DNA of 64,000 nt, taken from Narcine bancroftii. Its lineage: Eukaryota. The notes under the pieces are model-generated. The model was not told the DNA's origin and made no database searches. It was given only the letters and a program-made list of their open reading frames with translations. Within the stretch, counting starts at the first letter, position 1. Every line of letters starts with the position of its first letter. The stretch lies in assembly GCF_036971445.1 (NCBI RefSeq), contig NC_091473.1:205096001-205160000 (forward strand), read 5' to 3'. A program made the position numbers and the translations under genes. Positions 4,488-63,702 of this stretch are shown here, piece after piece.

Positions 4488-4601
4488 TTGGCCAAGGCCA
4501 ACAACTCCCGCTCCTTCACCTCCTGCTTCAGCTCCGCCAGGTGGAATTTTGCTTCCTCCGACTCGGCGCAAAAGTCCGACCTCCACTGGTCCGGAATCGA
4601 T
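4488..4601 (-). CDS. TEP1: TEP1 exon ([28 protein letters not shown]...), last exon visible
   Basis: gacag|/|GTAAGA boundaries, phase 2-2. Confidence 0.92.
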
Positions 4602-37600: not shown

Positions 37601-40600
37601 CAGCCCGTCATCCCCCCTCAACCTCAGGCCAGTTCCCGTCCTGCCCGCTCAGGCCCAGCATCCATTTCATTTCCCCATCCCGTCATCTTGGACCCAGCCC
37701 CAATCTGGACACCCCCCCCCTTGGGCCCACCCCAACCTGTGCCACCCAGCCCCTGGCCCCACCTACCTTACCCTCGGACCCAGGCCCCATCCCACTTCTC
37801 AGGTCCTGGTCCTGTTCTGCACCCTTTAAGCCCAGCCCGTCTGCATGCCCCCCCACCCCCTCCCCGTCTCAGATCCAGTCCTTATTCCTGCCCTCTTAAC
37901 CTTTGGCCCCCACCCCCTCCTTGGTCTCAGACCCAGCAGCCATCCCGCCTCCTCACCCTTGGCCTGAGCTGGCCCCTGTCCCAGTCCCTATCCCAACCCC
38001 TCACCCTTGATACATGCACCCTCCAACCAGATGGAATTAACATCAACTACTCTGGTTTCCATTAGACTCTGCATCACCATCCCTACATCAGGGTGTTTTT
38101 CATCGACTCCAGCTTTCAACACCATCATCCCCTCGGCATTGGTCAGCAAGCCTCAAAACCTGGGCCTCCTAGATTTCGTGCTTAGCCCACTGCTCTACTC
38201 TGTGTACATCCATGACTGTGGGGGGAGGCTCAATGCAAATCCATCTACAAAATGGCCGAATCGCAGGTGACAATGAGGACGCATACAGGACTGCAATAGA
38301 TCAGCCAGTTGAGTGGTGTCAAACGTCAGGCCAACTAAGGAGCTGATTGTGGACCGGAGGCAGGGGAAGCCAGGAGAGCAAGAGCCAGCCCTCGTCGAGG
38401 GGGTCAGCACAGTGCAACCTCACCTTCCAAGACATCAAGACCTATCCTGGGGGAATCACCTTGATGCAAATCACGAAGGCTCGCCTTGTTCGGAGGTTGA
38501 GGCGATTTGGCCTAGCACCAAAGACTCTTGCAGATTTCTGCGGGAGGACCGTGGAGAGCATTCTGTGTGGTGGGTCGCCATCGTCCTGTCCCACCATCAG
38601 CCACACTGAGGGTGGGCCCGCCCCTGGGTGTCCTCCCCCCCCCAACCCCCGTCCAGCTTCCCTCGGGCCTCCTCCCCGACTGTCTCCCAAACCTACAACA
38701 CAACAATTTGACCCTACCTTCCCTCGCGTCTTTCAAACCTGCGTCTGTCTACGAGTCTTTTAAATGTAGCCATTGTACCACCCTCCGCACTGCATTCCAG
38801 GCACCCATCACTCTCTAAATTAAAAAAAACTTATCTCGGACATCGTCCCTGAACTTTCCTCCACTTACCTTGTCCTCTGGTATTTGCTATTGTAGTCCCG
38901 AGAAAAAGGTACTGGCTGTCCACCCTATCTAAGCTCCTTGTAATCATATGCACTTCTATGGTCATCTCTCATCCGTCTCTCAAATGAGCAACCTTGCTTC
39001 ATGAGATACACTTTCCAATCCAGGCAAAATCCTGGTCAATCTGCTCTGCACCCTCTCCGCAGCATCCACACCTTTCCTGTAAAGCGTTGACCAGAACCGA
39101 ACACAATACTCCAAGTGAAGTCTAACCAGAGTTTTTAGACAGCTGCAACATTACCCCATGGCTCCTGAACACATTCCCTGACCAATGATGGCAGCACACC
39201 TTCTTTACCACCCCATCAACCTGCACGGCAACCTTGAGCGATTGATGGACCTGGACCCCAAAATCTCAGTTCCTCGGTACGATTAAGAATCCTGCCATTG
39301 ACCACGTATTCTGCCTTCAAGTTCGACTTTCCAAGGTGCGTCATTTCACACGTCTCCGGGTAAACCTCCTTCTCCCACCCGACTCTGTATCCTGTCTGTC
39401 TTCCGTTCTAACCCGCGACCCCTCCAATCCCAGTGTCACCTGAAAAATGACTAACTCAACCCCTTCTCCCACCCCCACTGCTGCTTCTTCGTCCAGGTCA
39501 CTCTTCATAGAGCAATACACCACACTGCAGGCCCTTCGGCCCTCAATGTTGTGCCAACCCATATATTCCTTCCAAAAGAAAAGGTACTAACCCCTCCCTA
39601 CCCCAGAACCCTCTATTTTTCTTCTGTTCATGTGTACGTCTAAGAGTCTTGGAAATTCCCCCAGTGTTTCAGCCTCCAACACCATCCCCGGCGAGGCATT
39701 CCAGGCACCCACAACTCTCTGTGTTTAAAAAAACTCTCCCCTAAACTTCACCTTATACACATCCTCTGGTGTTTGCTACTCCCACCCGAGGAAATGGGTG
39801 CTGGCTATGCCTCTCAGAATCTTGTAGACTTCTATTAAGTCTCCTCTCATCCTTCTGTGATCCAAAGAGAGAAGTCCCAGCTCTGCTAGCCTTGCCTCAT
39901 AAGATTTACCAGGCAGCATCCTGGTAAATCTTCATCCAAACTCTGCTCTGAACTACTTATCCAACCCCCCAATCATCGAGGAAGGGTTGAGGGGGGTGGG
40001 GGTGCTAGCAAATGGCCAGAACTGCTCCTGGACCCCACACTGACAGTTTCTCTCTCACTCTTTCTTGTGCACGGCAAGGCTCTCTCACACCTTTAAGAGG
40101 AACTCAGGATCATCCTCCGCCACCTCTCGGCACAGGTTCAGCAGCAGCTGGCGGGTCGGGTCACTGGGGTTGGTGAAATTAGGACCCTGCAGCAAAGAGG
40201 AACAGACAGCTTCGAGCAGGGACTCCTGGAAGGGGTGGGGAGAGAGAAAATTGGGGTTAAAAGGATAGCGTCGCCGTACCCAGCAGCAGACACCCGTGGA
40301 TGCTGTGGTCCAGTGTCGAGAAACCCCTGCCCCACTTCTCACCTCTGCAACCCTCATCATTGAGGGAGGGAGGTGGGAAGTTGGCATTTCGGGTCGGGAC
40401 CCTTCTTAAGAGCCCCAGGAGGAGCAGGGAGGGGTCCCGGATTGCAGACAGAAACTGTACCCCTCTGAGGGAGGGGGGATGGTCTGTGACATCCTGGAGG
40501 ACCCTCCCCCACCAATCCCATGCTGGCCAAGCCAACCCCATTTGCCTGCATTCCGGCCCCTGGACCTCTCCTATCCACGTACCCTCCAAAAGTTTAATTC

Positions 40601-43397: not shown

Positions 43398-43984
43398 CCC
43401 TGTGGGAGAGGTTAGGTGAGGAGGGGAAAAGAGAGCTGGATGAAAGAGGATCTGTCTCCACTTCCCCAGCACACCACCACTCCCCCAACCCCAATTGCCC
43501 AGCAACCCCTGGTGTAGGGAAGACCCTTTTAAATTTAAAAAGGACAGAGGTGAGTTCTGGAAACATTGCTTCAGCGCCCTCAACCAACCTTGCTGGCAAG
43601 GCCTGGAACCACTGCCGCCTTTGTCTGATGCACCCCTCCTCATCCCGAATACGCCGTTGCTCATACTGTTCCCCCACCTAAACACTATGACCATCCTCCC
43701 GGATACTGTCAGCCCCTCCTGGACACAGGGAACACCCACTCCCCCGCACACTGGGGACACACTAGACATTGGGAAACCATCTCAGACATTCTACCTCCCC
43801 TCCTGAACATGGGGAACCCCTCCCAGACACTGTAAAACCCCAGTGCCCTCTGTACTTATCCTGGCCCCTAGACTCTCTTTATCTCTGTAACTACCTCCGG
43901 TCCCTACACCCCTCCCCATCACCCCTCTCATTCCCTAAACCACCCCACCCCGTCTCTGCAACTTCCTCCAGTTCCCTGCTACAC

Positions 43985-47449: not shown

Positions 47450-47640
47450 CTCGTTCGCAGTTTCCACGGACGCGAAGGTTCCTCGGCCCTGCGGACGTCA
47501 CATGACCTTGCGCGCGTTGGTGCGGGTGATTGGCTGGAGCGGAAGCGAATGAAAGGGCGTGAACGGCCTCGCGCTGCGGTAGCGAACGGATGATCCGAGC
47601 AGCAATGGCGGAACGCGGAGGAGCTGAGCATCCCTCAGCT
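47450..47640 (-). promoter_or_regulatory. Putative TEP1 CpG-rich promoter and non-coding exon 1 (donor GAG|GTGGGG at 47450/47449)
   Basis: Local CpG cluster containing GACGTCACATGAC (overlapping CRE/E-box), GATTGGCT (CCAAT box on minus) and CGGAAG (ETS-like); lies 4 kb upstream of the ATG exon. Confidence 0.6.
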
Positions 47641-48059
47641 GGGCCACTACCACCCCCCCCCCCCCCCCCCCCGTGGACGCTGCGAGACACACTGAGTCCC
47701 GTCCACCCAACTAATGGGGTTAACTTTATGACATCCCTCTGGACATGCGGAGTTCTCCTCGGTACGTTTCTCTGGTAGATCTGATGATTTGCACTGGACG
47801 ACATTTCTCCGCAGGCCTAAGATTTCTTTCCCCTCCTTTTTATTTCTATAAAATATATTTTATCCATTTTATGTATTGTTTCCTTGAGGGGTTGGTTGGG
47901 GCGCGAGGGGCTTTTCGGGGATGGGTCAAAATCATCAATTTGTTTTTTTTAATCGTAATAACTATAGTTACTGCATGTGTGGAATTGTAATTATAAATAA
48001 TATTTTTAAAATGGAGACCTACTGAGTTCCACCAACATTTCTGTATTTTTGGCCTGGAA

Positions 48060-49312
48060 CTGTGGCGTCATGAGGGTTGGTGTCACCCGAAACGGTAACT
48101 TATAGACCCCCTCTCAGCCCCCATGGATCCCCTCCCGTACCAGACCATTGAGAATCTTTCCCTCCCCCCGCCACCCCCCCCCCCCGACCTCCTCCCGTAC
48201 CAGATCAGACAGAATCTCCCCTTCCCCCATGGACCTCCCATAGCAGACCATACAGAATCCCTCCTTCTGTACCAGAATCTTCGCCCCCCCCCTCACCCCC
48301 ATTGGACCTCCTCCCATACCAGACCATACAGAATCTCCCCTCCATGGACCTCCTCTGTAACACCATACAGAATCCGCTCCCCCATGAACCTCCAACCGTA
48401 ACAGACCATACAGAATTCCACCCCCCCCCCCGTGAAACTCCTCCTGTAACAGACCATCCAGCATTCCCCCCTCCATGGATATCCTCCTGAAAGACCAGAC
48501 AGGATACCCCCTCCGATGGATCCCCTCCCGTACCAGACCATACAGAATCCCCCCTCCACGGACCTCTTCCCATACCAGACAGTACAGAATCCCACCCCAC
48601 CCCCTGCAGACCTTCTCCAGTACCACACCATACAGAATTCCCCCCAATGGACTGCCTCCCGTACCACATTCGGAAAGTTTAGTAAAGTTTTTTTTGTACT
48701 ATTTTACTAATAAATCGTAATTCCCATATATCGTTTAATTATATGAACTAGATGGTATAAATACTAACAATAAAATTGTTTTGTAAAATCCTTTTACATT
48801 GAATTACAACATTATTAGTTACAACGTTATTCGTAACTGATCAGAAGTCTTTTTAAATTTTTTTCCTTCTTATCTTTAATTACTACTTAATTCTCAAAAA
48901 AAAGTTTTGATACAGGTTCCAAAATACTAATTACCACAATATTGTAGCTAAAACACTGGAAAATTTGACAAAAGCAGTGACCATAAAAACACCAGCAGCA
49001 ACGAAAAAAACAACACTTGCTTGTTTTTCCGTGCAAATTAAATCACGTGATTCAAAGCTTCATTGGGTAATAATGACAGCTCTGATTGGAGTGCATTAGA
49101 AGGTTCAAAAGGTAAATTAGCAGTGGTAGATATATTGATCCATGTAAGCTGGGCTTACAAAAAATGTTTGTTGTCATAACTAACTATAGGGATATTTTTA
49201 TAAATTTTTTTTTATAAATTCCTGCTGAAACTGCACAAAAATTTAATAGACAGGTAAATACCCTCTGATGGTGTCACCTGATGCGGTCCACACAACCCAA
49301 GTAACGCCAGTG
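48060..49312. mobile_element. Possible hAT-type MITE containing a minisatellite
   Basis: Degenerate TIR ctgtggcgtca / taacgccagtg; tggtgtcacc near both ends; no TSD. Confidence 0.4.
48120..48665. repeat. About 34-bp minisatellite
   Basis: ctcccgtaccagaccatacagaatccc units. Confidence 0.85.
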
Positions 49313-50039
49313 AGGGTTGTGGCAGGAGCACTGGCCAACAGGCAAGAGGCCATGGGTGGACATGGATAGGGAAGAGGGGAGCTCTGTGAATGCAGAGCTG
49401 GAAGAAAGGAGTTGGAAGGATAGGGAAAGTGAGATAAGGGGGAAACACAAAAGCGATTATTATCCTCCTGCCCACATATTTACAAACTACCCTGAACCCT
49501 AACCTTAGATTTGACACTAGATCTACCAGATTGTGAGCAAGTTGGTATGTGGGTTTGTCCTCAGTTTGAACAGTCTGAAGCCCACCACTCCGCTCCCACG
49601 CCGATAGCCCGCCACCAGCCCCCAATGATTGATAGCAGTGATTACTTAAGGTGGTATGTACATGGAAAGAAGTTTGAAATCCACGTCTTTCACTCAATAC
49701 TTGCAGTGGATTTCCCCAAACTCTTTTATAAATTGTATGCATATGTTTTATCAAATTGTGCGTGTATTTTCCCATGCTCTTTTATATATTCTGTGTATGC
49801 TTTATTAAATTGTGCATGTTTTTTTCCATGCTCTTTCATATTGTGTGCGTATATGCTTTATTCCCATGTTCTTCTATTAATTGTGTGTTAATAAAAGTAA
49901 TGTTTAATAGCAAACCCTTTGTTCAGACTCGTCTCTCAGGGACCTGACACTTTCTCAACTGAACAATGACCAGAGTGGGGACCAACAGCATCACTGTCAG
50001 CGTTACTCACCATGTCACCCTAATTTCAACCTGGTATAT

Positions 50040-53036
50040 TATATAACCATATAACCATTTACGGAGCAAAGGTCGTGTCGGCCTTTGGAGTCCGCACCGG
50101 TACAAGAACAACTCCACTAGCTCAAACCTCCCGCTCATCGCCAATAACCCGCCAACCTCCTCACCTCCATGTACACATCCAACCTTCTCTTGAATGACCG
50201 AAGGGACCCCGACGCAACTATCTCATTTGGTAGTTCATTCCATTCTGCCACCTCTCACTGAGTGAAAAAGCCACCTCTAATATTTCTCCTAAAGTGTTGC
50301 CCCCTTACCCTTAACTCATGGCCTCTTGTTCCAACCGCCCCTGCCCTCAGGGGAAAAAGTCTGTTTATGTCTAATCTATCCCTTTCATAATTTTAAATAC
50401 CTCTATCAAGTCCCCTCTCAATCATCTGCGTTCCAATGAATAAAGTCCCAATCTCCTTAATCTCTCCCTGTAATCCAGATGCTGTAAGCCAGACAACATC
50501 CTTGTAAACCTTATCTGCACCCTATCCACCTTATCTATATTCTTTCTATAATTTGGAGACCAGAATTGAGCACAGTACTCCAAACCTGGCCTCACCAATG
50601 CCTTAAACAGCTGCAGCATCACCTCCCAGTTCCTATACTCTATACTATGATTTATGAAGGCCAGCATACCATATGCCTTCTTAATCACCCTGTCTACATG
50701 GGAATCTACCTGCAGTGAACTCTGTACCATAACCCCCAGGTCCCTTTGCTCCTCTGTGTGCCTCAATGCCCTCCCCTTAACTGTATTTTTACTGAAATGC
50801 AACACCTCACACTTGTCTACATTGAATTCCATCTGCCATCATTCAGCCCACTCTTCCAAACAAACCAAATCCTTCTGTAATCCAAGAAAATCTACCTCAC
50901 TATCCACCACTCCCCCTATTTTCATATCATCTGCATATTTGGTTACCTAGTTAACCACACCCTCCTCTAAATCATTAATCTTCTTCTTTGGCTTGGCTTC
51001 GCAGACGAAGATTTATTGAGGGGTATGTCCACATCTGCTGCAGGCTCGTTGGTGACTGACAAGTCCGATGCAGGACAGGCAGGCACGGTTGCAGCGGTTG
51101 CAAGGGAAAATTGGTTGGTTGGGGTTGGGTGTTGGATTTTTCCTCCTTTGTCTTTTGTCAGTGAGGTGGGCTCTGAGGTCTTCTTCAAAGGAGGTTGCTG
51201 CCCGCCGAACTGTGAGGTGCCAAGATGCATGGTTGGAGGCAATATCAGCCCACTGGCGGTGGTCAATGTGGCAGGCACCAAGAGATTTCTTTAAGCAGTC
51301 CTTGTACCTCTTCTTTGGTGCACCTCTGTCTCGGTGGCCAGTGGAGAGCTCGCCATATAACACGATCTCGGGAAGGCGATGGTCCTCCATTCTGGAGACG
51401 TGACCCACCCAGCGCAGTTGGGTCTTCAGCAGCGTGGATTCGATGCTTGCGGATTCTGCCAGCTCGAGTACTTCGATGTTGGTGATGAAGTCATTCCAAT
51501 GAATGTTGAGGATGGAGCGGAGACAGCGCTGAATTAATATAAATCATTAATATAAATGATAAACAACAAGGGACCCAGCACCGATCCCTGAGGCACCCTG
51601 CTTGTCACAGGCTTCCAACCTGACATACAGTTGTCCACCATGACTCTGTGTCTATCTCCCAGCCACCTCTGAATCCATGTTACGATCTCTCTACTAATTC
51701 CTAGTGACTGAACCTTCCTTATTAACCTTCCATGCGGAACATTATCAAAAGCCTTACTAAAATCCAAATAGATCACATCCACTACTCTACCTTCATCCAC
51801 TTTTTTTGTTACTTCCTCAAAAAACTCAACAAGGTTCGTCAAACATGACTTTCCTTTAACAAACCCATGCTGGGTGCCCCTAATCAATCCCTGCCTATCC
51901 AGATATGCGTATATACTATCTTGAAGAATACCCTCCATAACCTTCCCCACCACCGAAGTCAAAACTTATTGGCCGAGAATTACTTGGCCTTCACCTACTG
52001 CCTTTTTTGAACAATTTAACAATATTTGCAATCCTCCAATCCTGTGGTACCACCCCCTCCTCCAGTGATCTTTGAAAAATCACTGTCAGAGCCTCTGCTA
52101 TTTGTTCCCTGACTTCCCTTAAAGTCCTGGGGAAAATCCCATCAGGACCAGGAGACATATCCACCTTAATTGACCCGAGAAGCTACAAAACTCTCACTTT
52201 ACTAATCCATATCCTTTCCATAACTAAGCCCTTTGCCTCTCTTATCTCATATAGCCCAATGCCCCTTTCCCTCGTGAATACGGACGAAAAAAAACATTCA
52301 ATATTTCTCCTATCTCATACGGTTCCTGACATAGTTCACTGGTCCCATCATCCAGTGCCCCTATTCTATCCTTAACCCTTCTTTTGATGTTCACATATCT
52401 GTAAAAACCCTTAGGATTCACCTTCGCCTTATTAGCTATGGACTCCTCATACCTTCTTTTTGCCTTTCTAATTTCCCTCTTAAGGTTCTTCCTGCAATTT
52501 AAGTAACGACCATACAATCCCTTGTTTTTTTTTATATTTGGTATAGGCCTCCCTCTTGTCCCGAACTAACTTCTTAATTTCACCAGAAAACCACGGCTCC
52601 CTCAAACCTTTAGTCTTCCCCTTTGGCCTGACTGGAACATAAAGATCCTGTACTCTCAAAATCTCACCCCTAAATGCCCCCCAAATTTCCTTTACATCCT
52701 TTCTGGCAAAAAGATCAGCCCACACAACTCTCTGCAAATTCCTTCTAATTTCTCCAAATCTGGCCTTCCCCCACTCGAAGACCTTCAACCTCAGACCCGA
52801 CCTATCCCTTTCCATCATTAAGCTAAAGCTAATGGACCCATGATCACTGGATCCAAAGTTCTCTCCAACGCTTACCTCCGTCACCTGCCCCATTGCATTC
52901 CCAAACGACAGATCTAAAACTGCTCCCTCTCTAGTTGGCGTCTCAACATATTGTTGCAAAACGCAATCTTGAACACAATGCATAAATACTAAGCCATTCT
53001 GCCCTTTTACTGACTGCATTTCCTAATCTATGTTTG
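50040..53036 (-). mobile_element. CR1 LINE ORF2, 5'-truncated, with (ATGGTTAT)n tail
   Basis: [54 protein letters not shown]. Confidence 0.92.
50980..51532 (-). mobile_element. RTE 3' fragment inserted in CR1 RT, 12-bp TSD TAAATCATTAAT
   Basis: TSD at 50968-50979 and 51540-51551. Confidence 0.92.
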
Positions 53037-56000
53037 CGTTTTACAAACAAGGTTCAATCAATAATGCAAACAAATCTGGTGAGTTGATCGAGTTACCTTA
53101 AAAGATTCTGAAATAAAACCATTCGTCAATACTCTAGCTACCAGTTTACTTTCTAGAGCCCCAATCCAACCAATAAAAGAAGGACCAAACTTCTCCAAAA
53201 CTTTGAACAAAAAAATCCATTAAACTCTATCAAATGCTTTTTCTGCATCTAACGATATCACCATTGGATGATCTAAAGATTTTCGGAATCTATTAATCAA
53301 ACTAATCACTCACAAAATATTATCTGAAGCATATCTATTCTTTATAAAACCTCTTTGATCAATATGTATAAACTTTGGTAAAAATTTAGCCAATCCATTC
53401 GCTAATGCTTTAGGTATTATTTTATAATCTACATTTAACAACGAAATTGGTCTATGTGAAGATGCCTTCAAAGGATCTCTATCTTTTTTTTAAGGGATTA
53501 CTGTAATTAAAGCACTAGAACAAGACTCAGGTAAATCATAATATTCTCCAACTTGATGTAATATATCCCCAAACACTGTAGATAAATCATCATTAAAAAA
53601 TTTATAAAATTCAACCGAAAATCCATCATCACCAGGCGATTTACCATTTGGCATTTCCAGCATAGCCATTTAAATTTCCGAATCAGTAAACGGTTCTTCT
53701 AACTCCTGTATATCTCCATCCTCTAATATCGGTAAATTCAACTGTGATTTAAAAAATCAGTCGATCCAGTTTCCTGTTTTCCTTCAGATGTATATAACTT
53801 TTTTATAAAATGAATAAAATTCATCATTAATCTCATGAGGTTTATAAGTAATAAAAGAATTCCGTCTAACAGCATTAATAGTCCTTGATATCTGTTCTTT
53901 CTTTAATTGCCACGCCAGTACCTTATGTTCTTTCTCTCCCCATTTGTAATGCCATTGTTTAGTCCTATTAATCACACATTCAAATTAATAAGATTGTAGG
54001 GTTTTATATTTCAATTTCAACCGAGATAATTCTAGTTTCTAATCTTCTGTAGCATCTTTCTGAAATTCCTTTTCTAACTCATCGATCTGTTTCTCTAATT
54101 CAAGACTCTGATTTAATCGATTCTTTTTTTATTTTAGAAGTATAACTAATTATTTGTCTTCTCAAATAGGCTTTCATAGCATCCCATAATACAAACTTAC
54201 TTTGAACAGATTTAGAATTTTCTTTAAAAAAAATTTAATTTGTTTTTTTCAAAAAATCAATAAATTCCGTATTTTTAACAACATTGTATTAAATCTCCAA
54301 CGATAAGCTATTTGAATTTTCTCAGAAGTTTCAAATGTAAAATATAACAGAGAATGATCTGAAATCACCCTAGTTTTATATTCCGCTTGTTGTATATTCC
54401 CTTGTAAATGTGCTGATACTAAAAAGAAATCAATCCTTGAAAACGATTCATGTCTAGATGAATAAAAGGAAAAATCTTTCTCTGTCAGATTAAGACGTCT
54501 CCAAATATCTACTAAATTAAGATCTTTCATCAATGCTTGGATCTGGATTTCCATCTTGGATTTTTTAACTTTCTTTGGAGATTTATCTAATAAAGGTTCC
54601 AAAACACAATTAAAATCACCACCAACTAAAATATTATCTTTAGCCTGTCCCAAACATAAAAATGCATCTGAAATAAATACTTCATCATGTGCATTTGAAG
54701 CATAAATATTAAGTAAAATCCAAAATCCACTAAAAATCTTACAATTCAGTTTAAGAATACATCCTGCCTTTTCCTCCATTGATTGTAATTCAAAAGATAA
54801 TGTTTTATGTAACAAAATTGCTACACCTTGAGCTCTAGAATTAAATGAAGAAAATTATACATGCCCAACCCAATCAATTTTTAATTTCACTTTCCTTCAC
54901 ATTCAAATGTGTTTCTTGTAAAAAGGCAATATCACTTTTCATTTTCTTAATATACGCCAAGAGTCGCTTATGTTGAATCGGACTATTTAATCCTCGAACA
55001 TTAAAAGTAGCAAACCTCAACATTGACATATCTACTATTATTGCTAAATGCCAATAATATCTTTATATAAGAACTCAAATCAACGTATATAGGCCCTCCA
55101 ATAAAAAAAAATCACAAATTAAAAACTAAGAAAAAAGTAAAAAAAAACAATAACCCTCCCCAAAAAAAAACTACCAAAAGGTAGTTATCCCCTAAACAAA
55201 AATTGGGTGTGGATCACCAACCAGTGGCTGATGACTAGTAGAGAACTTAATGCAAATCTCCCCCTCCCCAGCCAAACAATCAGTAACTTCCAAGTATCAT
55301 AATAACAAAAGAAAAAAATAAAATAAGAAAATTCTTCTTTTCATCCAAAAGACTCCAGTCTCAAAGTTCCCATTTTGGAAGAAGGTGGACTCTTTCCATT
55401 CCCATTTTTCCTATTTCTGCCATTTCTTCTGTTTCCAGAACTACAATTTTTTTCTTTAGGAGATAATGGTGAGCTTCGTCTTTGTCTTCTTATATCCGGC
55501 AATGAGTCAGCAAAAATCATTGCTTCACAATCAGTTTCAAAAAACCGAAATTGATAGTCTCCATAAACTGGATTAAATTGACATCGACGTTGAATGACAT
55601 CTTGACTCAGATCAGGATAAAAAAAAGACTCTACTATTCTGAACCAATAATGGGGTTTGTCGTCTCGCATTTTGTACTGCAAGTCGAAGTATTGCTTCTC
55701 TATCCAAATAACTCAGACATCGAATTATTACCGGTCTCGGGGGTTGACCAGCTGAGGGTATTCTTCTAAAAGCTCTTTGGGCTCTTTCCAGTGCCAATCC
55801 CCTGGAGAAACATTCTTGCCCTAATATTTTGTGGAATCCAGACTTTAAAGAAATGAAGAGGGTCTTGTCCTTCTATACCTTCTGGCAAACCAACAATTTT
55901 CACATTATTCCTTCTGCTTTGATTTTCCAAATAATCTATTTTTCTTTCTAGCTCCTTCTCATGATCTCCTAATTCTATGACTGATTTTTCCACCTTCAAC

Positions 56001-56618
56001 ACTTTTTCTGTGTTAGAAGTCACTTGTTGTTTACAGTCCAAAAAAGCAGTCTGAATTTTTTTAAATTCTTCAAAAGATGCATCCACACGTGCCTTAACCA
56101 TATTTAATTCTGTACTTATACCAGCATTCATTTGAACCATCTCATTCATTAGAGATTCAACATAGGTTGAATAACTGCATTTAATTGCATACATTGTGAA
56201 TCCGTAAATCTAGGGAGTCGCCGCTGGTCTCCCTCCCCTCCCACCCCCCCCCACCCCATCTTGTTGTCTTCTCATCCATTCGCAAACAAAAACGACTTCT
56301 TCAGATTGTAATGCTGCCTGATGCATTTCCTTTTTAGCCTCCACAGGCGGTCCTTGGGATTTAGGCAATGAAGAAACTGAGCCTGGGGCTGCTTCAAGTC
56401 GTCTAGGCCCCAAATCTTCAGCACTTCGAAAATGTATTTTCTTTTCAACTTGAGATTTAGTCTTTTTACCATTAGTGGCCATAATAATTCCTTAATACTT
56501 TAAACTAAAATTTAAAAAATTTAAAATTGGAAACAAAGGGTTAAAAACAGGTATTTAAAAGTCCAGCCAGAGAGGTCGAGATTGCACGTCGAGACTCTAC
56601 GCCATCTTACCACGCCCC
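53037..56618 (-). mobile_element. L1 LINE: 5'UTR, ORF1, ORF2 (EN and part of RT), 3'-truncated, decayed
   Basis: ORF1 LENQSRRNNVKIVGLPEG; ORF2 starts MSMLRFATFNVRGLN at 55029; GGDFN, SRIDFF, SDH; DAEKAFD. Confidence 0.92.
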
Positions 56619-56957
56619 ATCTCCAGCTTTAACCTAATGAAAGTTGACAATTCCCCAAAATGTTACCCTCTCCCTCGTATGTTCTCGCTCTGCTTACTCA
56701 TTTACACAGCCTGTGTTTATTAAACCTCCTCACGGTTTCTCTCTCTCTCTCTCTGTTACGTCGGACGTGGGATCGCGCTCTTATATGGTGGAACATTTGT
56801 AAAATATCCTTGCTCCGAAATGAGTCTTTGCATAATTTTCCTACTGAACTGTTGACTGATTCTATGCACCGTTCTGCCTGGTGAGACAGATTGGCCAGCA
56901 CTTATCCAACGAGATTCGTTCCGACCCGATGCAGTCCCATAATCTGTTTTGTTCCAG

Positions 56958-57263
56958 GGACGATTGGGAACGATTCAATGATTCAGGAACCCGCGGAATT
57001 GTCAGTCAATGAAGAGCAGATCGTATCACTGAGCTGCAGTTACTCGATGGTTGCTAACGCATATGTTTGGTACATTCAACGATCTGGAGAATCTCCCAAA
57101 TATTTGCTTGAAATCTACACGTCAGGAGACGTGGTTCCGCTCCTGATTGTCCGCAGAGAATATCGGATTCATTGGAGAAAAAGAGTCAGACATTCCACCT
57201 CAACATCACTAAAAGTCTTGTGAAGGATTCCGCGTGTGTCTCTGCGCCGTGAGACACGCACTG
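56958..57263 (+). pseudogene. TCR V pseudogene, paralogue of the 61019 V
   Basis: 1-nt deletions near 57140 and 57233; heptamer mutated to CGCACTG; nonamer deleted; no leader exon upstream of the L1 junction at 56618. Confidence 0.88.
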
Positions 57264-58149
57264 TTCCTGAGTTCAATCGGACGCTGGGGATCGGGGTCGC
57301 CCCTGACCACGGAATGGAAGGGACAGCGCGACCTTCCTGAAGGGCCTGATGAAAAGCCGAATTGCGGGAGATTTGCGCTCCTCTGAGCGTTTCTCTTTCT
57401 CTGAGTGCTCTTGGTCCGATTTGGAGGTTGGAAGTCAGGGGGAGAGGGAGAAATAGATAGGTATTTGTCAGTATATTGTAGGAAAATGAAGGAATGTTGG
57501 ATAGATGGAAGGTGAGAAGTTTTAAAAAAACTTAGCCGCGCGGGTGGGTGGGACTAACGATCCCTCAAACCTGTTATTGGTAAAATGAACAACTAGCTCC
57601 TTGGTTTTGGTGATATTAAGAGCACAATTGTCGTTCTCGAACCAGCCAAACTGGTTCTCGATCACCATCCTACATTCGGACTCATCGTTTCTATTTATTT
57701 GGGCAGCCCTGGTGGCGCCTTCAGCTAATTTGTAGATTGAGTTTGGTGTGAACTTGGCTGAACATCTATGAGTGAACATGGCTAAGGTTGAAGGGAGGGA
57801 GAGATTGGTACTGCTCTCTAAAGATTAACTAAGTGTAAGACGGAGTCCCCTCAAGGAAGGAAGCGAAAGAGAACACGAGAAGCGGCGAGAGGGTTCAAGA
57901 AAACAAATGAAGATGAAGGAAAGGGATGAGCGAGAGCGAAGAAGAGAGAGACGTTTGGTGTGTGAATATAGACAGGTAATACGTGGGAAAAAGAGTGAGA
58001 ATGAGAACGGCCAAAATTAATAACCAGGTTTCATTGGTTCTGTCACCATTGAGCCGATGTGTGAGGATGGCGCCCTTTTGTACCTCTACTGACGCGACCC
58101 CACTGACATATAGCGGGCGAAGACATTGAAATACGCTGCTGTTTATATT

Positions 58150-58610
58150 CATCCTGGTTTCCTTCCAATTCAGTTGTTTTCAGATTCTGTGGGCCGTTCT
58201 ACTTGGCGATCCTCTGTCTAATTGGTCAGCACGTGTCCCTCTCTGCTCAGACTATTTCTTCGCAGCTATGCACTGCATGCTTCTTTCCCGAAACAAATGG
58301 GGAAATGCTGTGACACACGGATATGGCCGCGGGAAGGCAAGAAGTGGCACTGACACTACTTATCGGACAAGTGTAACCTAATATTTTTGAGTCGTTACAA
58401 TTCCAGTGGACCGTGAGATCTTGGATATAACATACGATTCGATGCGCTTCGGTCTCATTATCGTCCGGACAGGATGATGGTTCCTTTGGAGAAAAGGGCC
58501 TGGATATTCCACCTCAATGTTTCGAAAGCTCTTGAAGCGGAATTGGCCGTGTATCTCTGCGCGGTGCGGCTCAAACTGTTCTTTGGAAATTGCGGAGTTG
58601 CACAAAAGCT
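58150..58610 (+). pseudogene. Eroded TCR V pseudogene (second subfamily) with degenerate RSS
   Basis: Leader relic (gattctgtgggcc); FR3 FHLNVSKALEAELAVYLCAVR; CAAACTG-23-ACAAAAGCT. Confidence 0.8.
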
Positions 58611-58679
58611 GATTCTGAAATCGGATGTGGGTGGAAACAAAACCGGAGACAGAGGACGCGAGACTCAGAGTGAGGCAGT

Positions 58680-60060
58680 CATATGGCAACTCGATCACAC
58701 TACCGCCACTCTCTGAGTGGAGGTTCCCTCTCAACCTTTCCTCTTTCAACATAAAGCTATGTCCAGTTGTCGTCATCTATCCAAATCTAAGTGGAAAGAG
58801 CCTACTCAATTTTACAGTGTCTACAACTCTCTTAAATTAGTAAATCTCAATCAAACATCCCCTTATTCCTCTACGCTAGAAGTCCTAACCTGTGTAATCT
58901 TTCCCTGTTATTCAACTCTTGAAGACTCGAAACATCGTAGTAAATCTCTCTCCACTCTTCCAATCTTAAATATACGCGTCGTATAGTTTGGCGACCGGAA
59001 GTGCACACAGAACTCCAAATATTCTCATATTTTCTATACTCTTCTCGTAGCTCATTAGCTCTTTGTTCCCTAAACACACTTTACACCTTCTTCACCAGAT
59101 CGCAAATGTCCTCGAAAGCCAAGGTTCCCTCTGTCTGTTATCTGTGACTTTAATCCTGAAAGGATGATGCACACTCCGCACTCTCAAAATGTTGCCTTTG
59201 AAGACCTTCCACTGACCGAACACATATTTGCCATTAAACAGATATTCCAGTCCACTCTTCCTCGATCCTTTCTTATTTCCATAAATTGGCCTCTCACCAA
59301 TTTATAATATTAACTCGACGGTTAGACCTGTCTATATGCATAAGTAAATTGAAAATAAGGACATAAAGTATTGCATCAGCTCTCGTTGGCACCTATATAT
59401 ATTGAATAAGAAATCTTTCCTGAACAGATTTGACAAACGTTAAGCCACCCAGCCCTTTTACCACATGGGGGTCCAGTCAATATATGGAAAATTAAAATCA
59501 CCTACTATCCCAACTTTCTGTTTCTTACATCGGTCTGCTTTCTCTTTTCAGATTTGCACCGTCAATTCTCTTGGACTATTGTACGGTCTATAATACAACC
59601 CTTTCAGTGTGGCCGCATCATACCCGTTGGTGAACTACATCCATATGGCCTCTGAGGACGAGGCCTGTCCTGTCTAATCTAACTCCTCCCCCTTTCACCC
59701 TCCCACATCATGTCCGAAAGAGAGAATCATGGAGCAATGTGCTGCCAGTCCTACTGCTCCTGCAACCACCTCTCACTAAAGGCAATAAAGTCGTGATTCC
59801 ACGCCTGAAAACCGCCCGCCTTTGTGGCAATACTCGTTGCATTGAAATAAATAGAACATTTCTATCGTGTGCAAACCTTTGATTTCTGTCTATACACGCA
59901 GTCCTCACATGATATTTATCTACGTCCACCTCACTATCAGCTGTCACAGTCTGGTTTCCCTCCCCCTACAAATCAAACTTAACCCTCCGGAACAGCATCA
60001 GCAAACCTGCCTGCAAGGATATAGGTCCCCTTCCAGTTCGGATACAAACCCCCTGTCGGA
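58680..60060 (-). mobile_element. Decayed CR1 fragments within the V array
   Basis: gaggttccctctcaac, cacagaactcc and aaaatcacctactatc relics. Confidence 0.55.
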
Positions 60061-60094
60061 TATATTTGCTGGAAAATCCGCAGCTCAGGGGTAG

Positions 60095-60260
60095 AGGGTC
60101 TGTCTCACTATTGGACGGACAGGATGAAGGGTTCCTTGGAGAAAAGGGGTTGGATATTCTAAGTCACTATCTCCGGAGATCCTGAAGTGGACTTGGCCGT
60201 TTGTCTCTGTTCGGTGCGATTCACACCCTTCCTGGGATATTGCGGAGGTACACAGGCTCA
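60095..60260 (+). pseudogene. 3' remnant of TCR V pseudogene
   Basis: FR3-like sequence (ttggagaaaagg..ttggccgtttgtctctgttcggtg); CACACCC-23-ACAGGCTCA; 5' part replaced by CR1 relic. Confidence 0.7.
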
Positions 60261-60674
60261 TTCTGTGATGGGATGTGGTTAGAGAGAAAAGGGGAGAAAG
60301 AAGTGGATAGAGCGTGTTGAGGATTGAGAAAGGTTAAGCAGGTGAAAGAGTGAGACAGAGTGAGGTAGAATCGTAGAAAGAATGAAGGGGTGAGACGGAG
60401 GAGTGAGGGAAAGCGAGGGAGGAGATACAAAGAGGGCAGGAGAAAGACGCGGGAAGTGGACAAAGAGGGAGAAACTGAGCGAAGGACGGGGAACGAGATG
60501 GGGAATGTCTTATCAACTCAGTCTGGTTGGTTCAATTATGGCCACACGAACCAATCCTGTGTGAGGTAAACACTCTCATATCTGGCCCAGGCGTCATTTC
60601 GCTGATAACATCGCCCCACCCTGGTACAGCGGTAACACAGGGAAATCTTCGCTTTAGACCTTAATCCGCGTACC

Positions 60675-61319
60675 ATGTCCCTCCTGAGTTGTTTGCTGAT
60701 TCTGTGGGCCTTTCTGACTGGTGAGACTGTCTGATTGGTCAGCGACGTCTATCCATTGTCTTTTCTCTTTGTATCTCCAGCTTTAACCTAATGAAAATTG
60801 ACATTTCCCCAAAATGTTGCTTCCGACTTGATATCGCGGTCTTATATAATCGAGCATTTGTAAAATATTCTTCCTCCGATTTGAGTCCGGGCATCATTTT
60901 CCTACTGTGCTGTTGGCTGATTGTTTGTGCCGTTCTACCTTGTGAGAGTGATTGGTCAACAAGTGTCCAGTGGGATCAGCGTCATCCCGCGCGATTAACA
61001 ACTTCTGTTTTGTTCCAGGGGCGAGTGGGAACGACTCAGTTAGTCAAGACCCCACGGAATTGGTGGTCTATGAAGGGCAGATCGTATCACTGAGCTGCAG
61101 TTACTCGAAGAGCCTGACGGCATATATTTGGTACATTCATCATCCTGGAAAATCTCCCAAATATCTGCTGAAAATCTACACGTCAGGAGAGGCGCTTCCG
61201 TCTCCAGATTGTCCGGAGAGAATATCGGGTACATTGGAGAAAAAGAGTCAGAAATCCCACCTTAACATCACTAAAAGCCTTGTGGAAGATTCCGCCGTGT
61301 ATCTCTGCGCAGTGAAGCA
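60675..61319 (+). CDS. T-cell receptor alpha/delta-type V gene segment, apparently intact (leader 60675-60720; V exon 61019-61319)
   Basis: Leader MSLLSCLLILWAFLT-G with phase-1 GTGAG donor. V exon DSVSQ..EGQIVSLSCSYS..WY..PGKSPKYLL..DSAVYLCAV. Followed by 23-RSS. Confidence 0.9.
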
Positions 61320-61358
61320 CACGCTGTTCCTGGGCAGTGGCAGATCCGTACAAAAAAC
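61320..61358 (+). other. 23-RSS (CACGCTG-23 bp-ACAAAAAAC)
   Basis: Heptamer and nonamer with a 23-nt spacer counted directly after the V exon. Confidence 0.9.
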
Positions 61359-61967
61359 GTAGCACACGAAATTTAATCGGACGCAGTGGGTCGGGGGCGC
61401 CCTCGATCACGGAATGGAAGCGGCAGCGCGACCTTCTTGGAGAGTCTGCAGGAACGTGGAGTGTGTGGAGATCTGCCCTCCTCTGATCGTTTCTCTCTCT
61501 CTGCGTGCTCTGTGTCTGAGGTGAGAGGTTGGAAGTCTTTAAGAAATAGACAGCTGTTTGCTGGAATATTGTACTTAAACGATCGATTGTTGTTTAGATA
61601 GATGGGAGGGAGAGGTTATCACTACTCTCGAAAGGTTAAATAAGTGTAAGAGGGAGTCGAATCGAAACAGAACGGGAGAAGCGGCGAGGGGGCCCAGGAA
61701 AACAAGAGGAGGTGATGGGAAGGGATGAGCGAGAGTGAAGAAGATAAAGACGTGGGAAGTGTAAATGTAGACAGCGAATCACGAGCGAAAATGACTGAAC
61801 ATGAGAACAGCCAACATTAATAACTAGATTCCATTGGTCCAGTAACTGCGCCCTATTGAGCCGATGTGCGAGGAGGGCGCCCTCTTATGTATCCTTGAGG
61901 ATGGGCCGCCACTGACGCGACCACCCAGTCTTCGACTAAAATGTTGAAATATTTGCTGTTTATCTTC

Positions 61968-62428
61968 ATGCTGGTTTCCTCCCCATTAAGTTATTTGTTG
62001 ATTCTGTGGGCCGTTTAGCTTTGTGAGCCTCTGACAGATTGGTCAGCGCGTGTCCCTACCGGCTCAGCGCAATTCTTCTCATATCTTGCACTGCGAGCTT
62101 CATTCCAGGAACAAAAGGGGAAATGTAGTAACACACGGAAATGTCTGCGGGACGCCAAGCAGAGTCACTGACACTACTTACCCCACAAGTGTTACCTTAT
62201 ATCTTTGGGACGTTAAAATCCCCGTGGATCGTCAAATCTTGGATATAACATCCAGTTCGATGTGGTTCAGACTCACGATCGTCCGGACAGGATGACGGTT
62301 ACATTGGAGAAAAGGGTCAGGATATTACATCTCAATATCTCGAAAGCTCTTGAAGCCGACTTTGCCGTGTATATATGCGCGGTGCGGCGCACACTGTTCT
62401 TTGGAAATTGCGGTGACGCACAAAACCT
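61968..62428 (+). pseudogene. Eroded TCR V pseudogene with well-formed 23-RSS
   Basis: Leader with in-frame TAG; deleted/frameshifted FR1-FR2; FR3 LHLNISKALEADFAVYICAVR; CACACTG-23-ACAAAACCT at 62390-62428. Confidence 0.82.
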
Positions 62429-62836
62429 GATTCTGAAATCGGATGTGGGTGGAATCAAAACGGGAGGAAGAGGACGGGAGATCATGTTAGTGATTGCGAA
62501 AGGCCGAGCAGGTGAAAATGTTAGATAGAATGAGCTAGAGGAATGGAATGAAAGAAGCGGAGAGAGGGAGCGAGGGAGGAGATAAAAAGACGGAAGACAC
62601 TGGGAATGTACAGATAGAGGGAGAAACCGTGAAAGGAGAGCGCGATGCAGAGTGTCTTCTCAACGCGGTCTGATTGGTTCACGAATGAGATCATCAACCA
62701 ATCAATCGTATGTGAAGGAAACTCATTCATTTCTGACCCAGGGTGTTTGTCCGCTCATAACATCGACCGACCCGTATTTCCCTATGTTCAGCTGTAATGC
62801 AGGGAAATCTTCGCATTTGACCTTAATCCGCAGATC

Positions 62837-63047
62837 ATGGCTGTTCTGTGTTTTTTGCCGATTCTTTTGGTCGTTTGGACTGGTGAGCATGTCCGATATG
62901 TTACCATCCCCAGTAGTCCACGTGTTTTTAACTTTAACATCAGTAAAGTTAGATGAGTTCCCCCGGAAGAATCAAACTCCTTAGCTCTCCCTCCGTTTAC
63001 TCGTTTACTCGTTCACTGTCTACGTACTGATCTACGTCGCGCGCCCC

Positions 63048-63103
<56 letters not shown>

Positions 63104-63664
63104 GTCGCTCCTCGCCATTCTAATGAGAGAGAAACAAGTCCAGTCTCAAAAGAGATTTTTCAGCATCCGACGTGAGTTTGCGACCTTGTGTGGGGTGAGC
63201 ATTTGGAAAATTTCTTTCTTCCGAATTGAAGCCGAGCATCATGTTGCTCCTGAAGATTGGGCAGAATCTTAGGGCCGATCTGCCAGCTGAGACAGATTGG
63301 TCAACAAGTGTCGCGCGGGTGCAGTACGGTCCAGCGGTGTTCACTCATTGTGCTTTGTTACAGGGGCCAGTGCGAATGATTCAGTGACACAAAGACCGCC
63401 GGAAATGATAGTCGATGAAGGGCAGTTTGTGGAACTGAACTGTAGTTACTCGATGACAACCTACGCTTATTTTTGGTACATTCAAAATCCCGGAAAATCT
63501 CCAAAATATTTGCTGAAAATCCAACTGTCAGGAGACGTGTTTCCTTCTCGCGATTGTCCTGAGAGGATATCGGGTTCCTTAGAGAAAACGAGCCAGAGAT
63601 TCCACCTTAATATCTCACAAATCCGCGTGGATGATTCCGCCGTGTATCTCTGCGCCGTGGAGCT
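62837..63664 (+). CDS. T-cell receptor alpha/delta-type V gene segment, apparently intact (leader 62837-62882; V exon 63364-63664)
   Basis: Leader MAVLCFLPILLVVWT-G|GTGAG. V exon DSVTQ..EGQFVELNCSYS..WYIQNPGKSPKYLL..DSAVYLCAV. Confidence 0.9.
63051..63102. repeat. (CT)n microsatellite in V leader intron
   Basis: CT run. Confidence 0.95.
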
Positions 63665-63702
63665 CACGCTGTTCCAGGGCGGCGGGGATCTGCACAAAAA
63701 CT
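63665..63702 (+). other. RSS (CACGCTG-22 bp-ACAAAAACT)
   Basis: Heptamer/nonamer after the V exon; spacer counts 22 nt. Confidence 0.85.

What the first reader, a model, noticed from the sequence alone, without database searches (positions are those of the whole stretch)
47450..63702. TEP1 lies head-to-head with the edge of a TCR alpha/delta V array, about 9.5 kb apart
Seen: the TEP1 promoter faces left, the V segments face right, and only transposon debris lies between them. Known: human TEP1 and the TRA/TRD locus are both on 14q11.2 but separated by many genes, with METTL3/SALL2 flanking TRAV. Inference: this may be the 5' boundary of the TCR alpha/delta locus in a probable cartilaginous fish. 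It would show ancient TEP1-TCR linkage with a different immediate neighbour, and a housekeeping promoter close enough to affect distal V accessibility.
Basis: partly seen in the sequence, partly recalled or inferred. Interest (0 to 1): 0.7.

Follow-up and report, generated by a model that had tools for sequence, protein, structure and literature searches.

The report
Telomerase gene abuts ray T-cell locus
In this electric ray the T-cell-receptor alpha/delta gene array begins 9 kb from the start of the housekeeping gene TEP1, likely because an ordinary chromosome rearrangement moved away the block of genes that separates the two in humans, and nothing found suggests that TEP1 controls the receptor genes.

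Summary
TEP1 (minus strand; ATG 43,397; likely non-coding first exon at 47,450) faces a V array across about 9 kb of LINE debris. The array is the 5' end of a complete TCR alpha/delta locus on contig C11: V segments over 1.76 Mb, 3 D, 1 J-delta, C-delta, 42 J-alpha, C-alpha, then an ABHD4-like gene, OXA1L, IgH clusters and PSMB5-like. DAD1 is on another contig. The genes that lie between TEP1 and TRAV in human (order recalled: OSGEP, APEX1, PIP4P1, PNP, SUPT16H, CHD8, TOX4, METTL3) sit together, mostly in reverse order, about 8 Mb downstream. The present edge is a secondary break. The first V is a half gene cut inside an L1, whose paralogue 220 kb away keeps the leader. The first intact V is 13 kb from the promoter. 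In stingray, TEP1 and TRDC share a chromosome-length contig, so the linkage is old, as the published shark/human-14 synteny implies. Whether the direct adjacency is old is untested, and I found no support for regulation. Long reads were not available to check the junction. The scan's notes show shark TRA/D arrays elsewhere, none with TEP1.

The parts
4493..43399 (-). TEP1 coding exons in the window (ATG at 43,397; TROVE and DUF4062 regions); the gene continues left to C11:205,030,643
   Evidence: tblastn of shark and ray TEP1 proteins; TROVE hits; acceptor and ATG context
47450..47720 (-). CpG-island promoter and likely non-coding TEP1 exon 1, splice donor after 47,450; CCAAT-, CRE- and ETS-like boxes (motif names recalled)
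   Evidence: GC 0.665, CpG o/e 0.94; exact contigs from runs X1 and X7 cover most of it; exon inferred, no RNA
47721..50040 (.). Simple repeats and interspersed-repeat debris; no V leader and no L1 3' remnant
   Evidence: no blast cover by any fetched locus; high repeat depth and exact contigs from three samples
50041..53036 (-). 5'-truncated LINE (CR1-like by recall; RT domain) with a younger high-copy repeat nested at 50,976-51,531
   Evidence: RVT_1; copy extents; closest genome copies 91-93% and ending at 53,036
53049..56618 (-). L1-like LINE inserted in the intron of the first V: 5' end at 56,618, cut at 53,049; the LINE/LINE junction is the break that forms the array edge
   Evidence: endonuclease domain; full-length copies run 1.9 kb further; the paralogue at C11:205,372,940-205,377,600 keeps 0.5 kb more L1 and the V leader
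56619..57265 (+). First V unit: half gene starting in mid-intron, no leader or promoter, frameshift, RSS nonamer lost
58130..58610 (+). Degenerate V unit (stops, damaged leader)
60040..60240 (+). V exon remnant (3' half only)
60675..61358 (+). First intact TRAV/TRDV-type gene: leader 60,675-60,720, V exon 61,019-61,319, 23-RSS (heptamer CACGCTG)
61960..62428 (+). V pseudogene (in-frame stop) with 23-RSS
62837..63702 (+). Second intact V gene: leader 62,837-62,882, V exon 63,364-63,664, RSS with 22-bp spacer

Best explanation
This is the 5' edge of the ray's single, complete TCR alpha/delta locus, and TEP1 is likely a bystander neighbour, left beside it when the gene block that separates them in human was moved by rearrangement. 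Shown: (1) the locus anatomy. (2) The gene order PARP2(+), LTB4R-like(+), adenylate cyclase(+), EMC4(+), TEP1(-), V...C-alpha(+), ABHD4-like(+), OXA1L(-), SLC7-type(-), IgH, PSMB5-like(+). (3) A roughly 350-kb block at 213.00-213.36 Mb holding TOX4-like, CHD8-like, SUPT16H, NUTM1, NOP10, SLC12A6-like, METTL3, PNP, PIP4P1-like, APEX1-like and OSGEP-like. (4) The first V is cut inside an L1 that a paralogue retains with its leader. Inferred: an inverted transposition or two nested inversions, plus smaller local flips, separate this order from the human one (human order recalled). Which lineage moved the block is unresolved. The present end of the array was made later, by a deletion or by a duplication breakpoint in the L1, after that L1 copy and its paralogue split (6.4% substitutions). 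The V genes would work as in any TRA/D locus, by RAG joining of their 23-RSS to D-delta or J-alpha 12-RSS under their own promoters and 3' enhancers (established knowledge, not tested here). TEP1 points away, lies outside every deleted interval, and is likely neither affected by V use nor steering it.
For: Locus; C-delta relatives include stingray and skate TRDC. Boundary. Flanking and displaced genes. Secondary edge. No special chromatin signature near TEP1: CpG o/e is 0.83 in the window's V units, 0.70-0.82 in the next nine 10-kb loci, and 0.58-0.94 in 20 V-bearing loci up to 1.5 Mb away. Flanks of TRA/D are known to change: axolotl has KLHL33 at the V end and NUTM1/LPCAT4 at the C end (PMC12529555); newts lost the flanks (PMC12698447).
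Against: The junction across the two LINEs was not checked with reads. The position of TEP1 on the stingray chromosome could not be obtained, so an old direct adjacency is not excluded. Axolotl has KLHL33, TEP1's human neighbour (recalled), at the V end, which echoes the ray order. Several gene names rest on a Pfam family plus recalled similarity. KLHL33, SALL2 and RAB2B were not found in the stretches read. No expression or chromatin data were obtained.
Confidence: 0.72

Rival explanations
1. The direct TEP1-TRAV neighbourhood is ancestral in cartilaginous fish (perhaps in jawed vertebrates), and the METTL3/SALL2 flank was inserted between them in bony vertebrates. The young L1 break would then only mark a duplication that pushed the V array towards a long-standing neighbour.
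For: The order V, C-delta, C-alpha, IgW, PSMB5(+) is the same here and in stingray (Table S1 of PMC12227049). TEP1 shares the stingray chromosome with TRDC. PARP2(+)-TEP1(-)-TRAV(+) keep human orientation (human order recalled). Axolotl has KLHL33 at the V end. The L1 break fits a duplication end as well as a deletion.
Against: METTL3/SALL2 flank TRAV in frog and opossum and, per the newt paper, in coelacanth and many amniotes. The axolotl locus has moved away from ABHD4, so its flank is probably secondary. Other elasmobranchs scatter V segments over 5-9 Mb among IgM clusters, so edges are labile.
Confidence: 0.17
2. The TEP1 CpG-island promoter acts on the locus, as an open-chromatin or loop boundary that raises use of the most distal V cassettes; this would favour their recent tandem expansion.
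For: The promoter is 13 kb from the first intact V. The distal 90 kb is a recent 10.2-kb tandem expansion at 96-98% identity, with 13 of 43 V-like units being stop-free A/B-family exons. No CTCF-like site lies in the spacer (0 in 9.2 kb, against 0.8 in shuffles, motif recalled).
Against: The three V units nearest TEP1 are dead. The spacer is CpG-poor LINE DNA (o/e 0.47-0.48). CpG richness does not fall with distance from TEP1. The same V families have open-frame members 0.2-0.65 Mb away.
Confidence: 0.06
3. The 9-kb spacing is an assembly mis-join or collapse inside the LINE stretch.
For: The break sits between two repeats. No laid contig bridges the LINE stretch.
Against: The join is between two different LINE families and occurs once among the 40 best of 2,993 candidates. 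The window has no N, and the nearest gap is about 108 kb left of it. Both sides belong to the same ancestral linkage group.
Confidence: 0.05

Closest known systems
Elasmobranch antigen-receptor complex (AgRC), Flajnik et al. 2025, PMC12227049 (read: abstract, parts 1-2 of 8 of the text, all of Table S1; term search of text and both supplements)
   Same: TCR alpha/delta translocon followed by IgH clusters and PSMB5, syntenic with human chr14; same V-C-IgW-PSMB5 order as stingray chr26.
   Different: The paper names no non-immune flank other than PSMB5 (0 hits for TEP1, DAD1, METTL3, SALL2). Here no IgH constant exon was found inside the 1.6-Mb V array (150 of 170 candidates scored), unlike white shark and stingray.
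Tetrapod TRA/TRD locus flanked by METTL3-SALL2 and DAD1-ABHD4 (PMC2275272, PMC4536121: passages read)
   Same: V-D-J-C-delta nested before J-C-alpha; ABHD4-like and OXA1L follow C-alpha.
   Different: The 5' neighbour is TEP1; METTL3 is 6 Mb beyond C-alpha; DAD1 is on another contig.
Axolotl TRA-TRD (PMC12529555: passages and supplement rows) and newt TRA/TRD (PMC12698447: passages)
   Same: Working loci with changed flanks; axolotl has KLHL33 at the V end and NUTM1/LPCAT4 at the C end.
   Different: Those loci left ABHD4 and IgH behind; the ray keeps both, and only the 5' flank and DAD1 differ.

Membership tests
TCR alpha/delta (TRA/TRD) locus | V genes with split leader, V-set exon and 23-bp RSS | tested here: met
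   (some spacers are 22 bp)
TCR alpha/delta (TRA/TRD) locus | D segments with 12-RSS and 23-RSS, J-delta and C-delta upstream of the J-alpha cluster | tested here: met
   3 D at 206,935,580, 206,973,405 and 206,974,906; J at 206,993,791; C at about 207,004,700; TM exon at 207,008,400; C relatives include stingray and skate TRDC
TCR alpha/delta (TRA/TRD) locus | Large J-alpha cluster (FGxG, 12-RSS) and C-alpha | tested here: met
   42 J at 207,053,735-207,125,155; C-alpha exon 100% to P0122
TCR alpha/delta (TRA/TRD) locus | Rearrangement and expression of these V genes in T cells | not testable with these tools
   no RNA holder listed
Elasmobranch AgRC | IgH clusters and PSMB5 linked to TCR alpha/delta | tested here: met
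   IgH V and multi-exon C at 207.5-208.2 Mb; PSMB5-like at 212.61 Mb
Elasmobranch AgRC | IgM, IgNAR, UrIg2 and NARTCR in the same linkage group | tested here: inconclusive
   isotypes not typed by tree; the V-set hits checked at 182-216 Mb were other IgSF genes or IgL; no targeted UrIg2 or NARTCR search
TEP1 orthologue | TROVE, DUF4062, NACHT and WD40 regions in order in one gene | tested here: met
Tetrapod-type TRA/D flank | METTL3/SALL2 at the 5' end | tested here: not met
   METTL3 at 213.21 Mb; SALL2 not located
Tetrapod-type TRA/D flank | DAD1 directly 3' of C-alpha | tested here: not met
   only DAD locus is C5:291.9 Mb, 16 of 16 candidates scored
Tetrapod-type TRA/D flank | ABHD4 and OXA1L 3' of C-alpha | tested here: met
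   OXA1L match E 4.5e-26; alpha/beta hydrolase at 207.19 Mb with one paralogue on C5, named ABHD4 by recall and position

The most novel reading that the evidence does not exclude
TEP1 is the original 5' neighbour of the TCR alpha/delta locus. The METTL3/SALL2 flank long treated as the conserved landmark was flipped in between only in bony vertebrates, and the TEP1 CpG island serves as the outer boundary of the recombination domain in sharks and rays.
Probability: 0.12. Interest if true: 0.55.

Novelty: new member of a known kind. Interest (0 to 1): 0.27.

Why it matters
It gives a complete, bounded map of a ray TCR alpha/delta locus and non-immune markers for both ends, which the published elasmobranch maps lack. 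TEP1, OSGEP and METTL3 can now be used to test in any shark or ray genome how the human 14q11 order arose. It adds another case, after axolotl and newts, that the METTL3/SALL2/DAD1 flank is not needed for an apparently intact locus. It does not reveal a new mechanism.

Tried and rejected
Orphon V cluster: rejected. More V left of TEP1: none (with 150 of 674 scored, 94, 95, 96). The other half of the first V at a reciprocal breakpoint: a leader/promoter search gave 40 matches (40 of 47 scored), all within 205.156-205.978 Mb, and none near OSGEP. CTCF-like sites with a recalled consensus: no enrichment (14 in 97 kb of V array, against 13 in shuffles), so uninformative. CpG spreading from the TEP1 island: rejected. 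Sequencing runs: no RNA holder listed. Placing TEP1 on the stingray chromosome by finding its V proteins failed (13 hits, none named from a shark or ray). Contig-length matching worked for stingray only. White-shark TEP1 lies on a 20.4-Mb contig, compatible with but not shown to be its AgRC chromosome. A short plus-strand ORF in the CpG island has no Pfam match. Literature: searches for TEP1 with TCR terms, shark TCR flanks and the genus listed no paper reporting this adjacency. Term searches gave 0 for TEP1 in PMC12227049, PMC12698447, PMC12529555, PMC4536121, PMC2275272 and PMC10322711. Figures were not visible, subscription papers are not covered, and supplements of the last four of these and of PMC12698447 were searched only for PMC12529555. 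One search was seen as a listing only.

Full report
The window is G000:C11:205,096,001-205,160,000 on a 257.7-Mb contig and has no N. Genome coordinates below are on C11 unless stated.

TEP1. A window exon finds cartilaginous-fish TEP1 as its best named relatives, at 78-84% identity. Those proteins map exon by exon on the minus strand from window 43,397 to 205,030,643; a 2,589-residue stingray TEP1 is covered over 2,061 residues. The ATG lies 2 bases after a pyrimidine-rich acceptor, so an upstream exon is required. A 280-bp CpG island with a donor at 47,450 is the only candidate I saw. This exon is inferred, not shown by RNA.

The V array. Six V-derived units lie in 56,619-63,702, and two are intact, with leader, open V exon and RSS. 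The array continues as a 10.2-kb tandem cassette at 96-98% identity; 13 of 43 V-like units in 205.153-205.241 Mb are stop-free exons of the two intact families. Other families follow to 206.91 Mb. No V was found to the left: a local profile over 357 kb gave none, and two genome-wide searches with all candidates scored (119 of 119; 134 of 134) had no C11 match outside 205.157-206.868 Mb.

The locus is complete. Downstream are 3 D segments with 12- and 23-RSS, 1 J-delta, C-delta at 207.005 Mb, 42 J-alpha and C-alpha at 207.130 Mb. The C-alpha exon is 100% identical to a protein NCBI labels as TCR alpha of Narcine bancroftii, an electric ray. Relatives of the C-delta exon include stingray and skate TRDC, and its TM exon closely resembles the stingray one.

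Gene order. Left of TEP1 lie PARP2 (204.80-204.85; best match human PARP2), an LTB4R-like gene (204.916), an adenylate cyclase (to 205.013) and EMC4 (205.024). Right of C-alpha lie an alpha/beta hydrolase that I call ABHD4 by recall and position (207.19), OXA1L (207.23), an SLC7-type permease (207.26-207.28), IgH clusters (207.5-208.2) and a PSMB5-like gene (212.61). DAD1 has one locus, on C5 (16 of 16 candidates scored). At 213.00-213.36 Mb lie, left to right, TOX4-like(-), CHD8-like(+), SUPT16H(+), NUTM1(-), NOP10(-), SLC12A6-like(+), METTL3(-), PNP(-), PIP4P1-like(+), APEX1-like(-) and OSGEP-like(+). TOX4 and SLC12A6 rest on recalled similarity alone, with no matching Pfam hit. One assembly gap lies inside this block, near 213.083 Mb. 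From memory, human runs PARP2, TEP1, KLHL33, OSGEP, APEX1, PIP4P1, PNP..., SUPT16H, CHD8, RAB2B, TOX4, METTL3, SALL2, TRAV, with TEP1 already divergent from TRAV at about 1.2 Mb. So 8 of the genes that lie between TEP1 and TRAV in human are gathered here in one block 8 Mb away, in reverse order apart from METTL3. KLHL33, RAB2B and SALL2 were not seen in the stretches read. An inverted transposition or two nested inversions, plus local flips, would convert one order into the other (inference). Human 15q14 genes (EMC4; SLC12A6, NOP10, NUTM1; location recalled) are split between the same two places.

The edge is secondary. Similarity of the first V unit to other V genes begins at exactly 56,619, in mid-intron, against the 5' end of a minus-strand L1. 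The L1 stops at 53,049, 1.9 kb short of full-length copies, and meets a different LINE; the missing part is not in the window. A paralogue at 205,372,940-205,377,600 has the same L1 at the same intron site, with 0.5 kb more L1, the leader, and more V-array DNA upstream. The two L1 copies differ at 142 of 2,222 aligned sites (6.4%). No stray leader was found outside the array (40 of 47 candidates scored). The present end was therefore cut after that duplication, by a deletion or as the end of a duplicated segment. This dates the 9-kb spacing, not necessarily the TEP1-TRAV neighbourhood.

Other species. Stingray TEP1 and TRDC both lie on a contig of 48,887,500 bases, which Table S1 of PMC12227049 identifies by gene name as the AgRC chromosome. 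Their distance could not be obtained. That paper shows TCR alpha/delta, IgH and PSMB5 linked in four elasmobranchs and syntenic with human chr14, and does not mention TEP1. METTL3/SALL2 and DAD1/ABHD4 flank the locus in opossum and frog. Axolotl has KLHL33 and NUTM1/LPCAT4 instead, and newts have lost the flanks. Changed flanks are thus known; this particular one was not found in print in the searches named under Tried and rejected.

Regulation. The first intact V starts 13 kb from the promoter, behind three dead units and CpG-poor LINE DNA. The V array is CpG-rich along its whole length, not only near TEP1. A recalled CTCF consensus is not enriched, and it is absent from the spacer; this is uninformative. 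No RNA or chromatin data were available. TEP1 lies outside any V-to-J deletion. I give the regulatory idea about 6%.

Assembly. Exact contigs from three samples cover pieces of 47.4-49.9 kb, but none bridges the LINEs. A mis-join is unlikely, because the join is between different repeat families, occurs once among the 40 best of 2,993 candidates, and links genes of one ancestral group. It is not excluded.

Verdict: a real and well-defined 5' boundary of a known kind of locus, with a flank not found in print that ordinary rearrangement explains. Interest 0.27.

Noticed in passing
G000:C5:291,900,086-291,902,127 (L080): DAD1, the usual 3' neighbour of TRAC, is an intron-containing gene on another contig; an ABHD4-like gene follows C-alpha instead.
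   Followed up: partly
C11:205.15-206.78 Mb: No IgH constant exon was found inside the V array (150 of 170 candidates scored), and no intact VH-like V lies in 206.74-207.14 Mb, unlike other sharks and rays where IgM clusters and Ig V segments are interleaved.
   Followed up: partly
C11:206,786,500-206,786,800 (L005): Inverted, stop-containing C-delta-like exon 220 kb upstream of the real C-delta (34% identity).
   Followed up: no
C11:206,490,500; 206,513,400; 206,910,300: Three inverted V genes with 23-RSS; the last is divergent from the other TRAV families.
   Followed up: no
C11:205.155-205.241 Mb (window 59,000 onward, L071-L079): Recent 10.2-kb tandem cassette at 96-98% identity, each copy with two usually intact V genes and three dead ones.
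   Followed up: partly
window 56,829-56,890; 60,893-60,955; 63,240-63,300: The V introns of the distal families carry a second, decayed copy of the leader exon and its donor site.
   Followed up: no
window 61,019-61,358 and 63,364-63,702: Distal V families have an extra cysteine in the C'' region, heptamer CACGCTG, and in one family a 22-bp RSS spacer in 8 of 8 copies.
   Followed up: no
whole V array: CpG o/e about 0.7-0.9, against 0.33 in the TEP1 gene body and 0.56 in the J-alpha region; possibly germline hypomethylation of V cassettes.
   Followed up: partly
C11:205.024 and 213.14-213.20 Mb: Genes of human 15q14 (EMC4; NUTM1, NOP10, SLC12A6-like; location recalled) are interleaved with 14q11-12 genes, as NUTM1/LPCAT4 are beside axolotl TRA/D.
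   Followed up: partly
C11:204.92-204.935 Mb (L043-L044) and 205.787-205.793 Mb (L173): Retrovirus-like LTR elements, one of them inserted in a V intron; observed only.
   Followed up: no
C11:206.93-207.00 Mb: Only one J-delta was found, with three D-delta spread over 40 kb.
   Followed up: no
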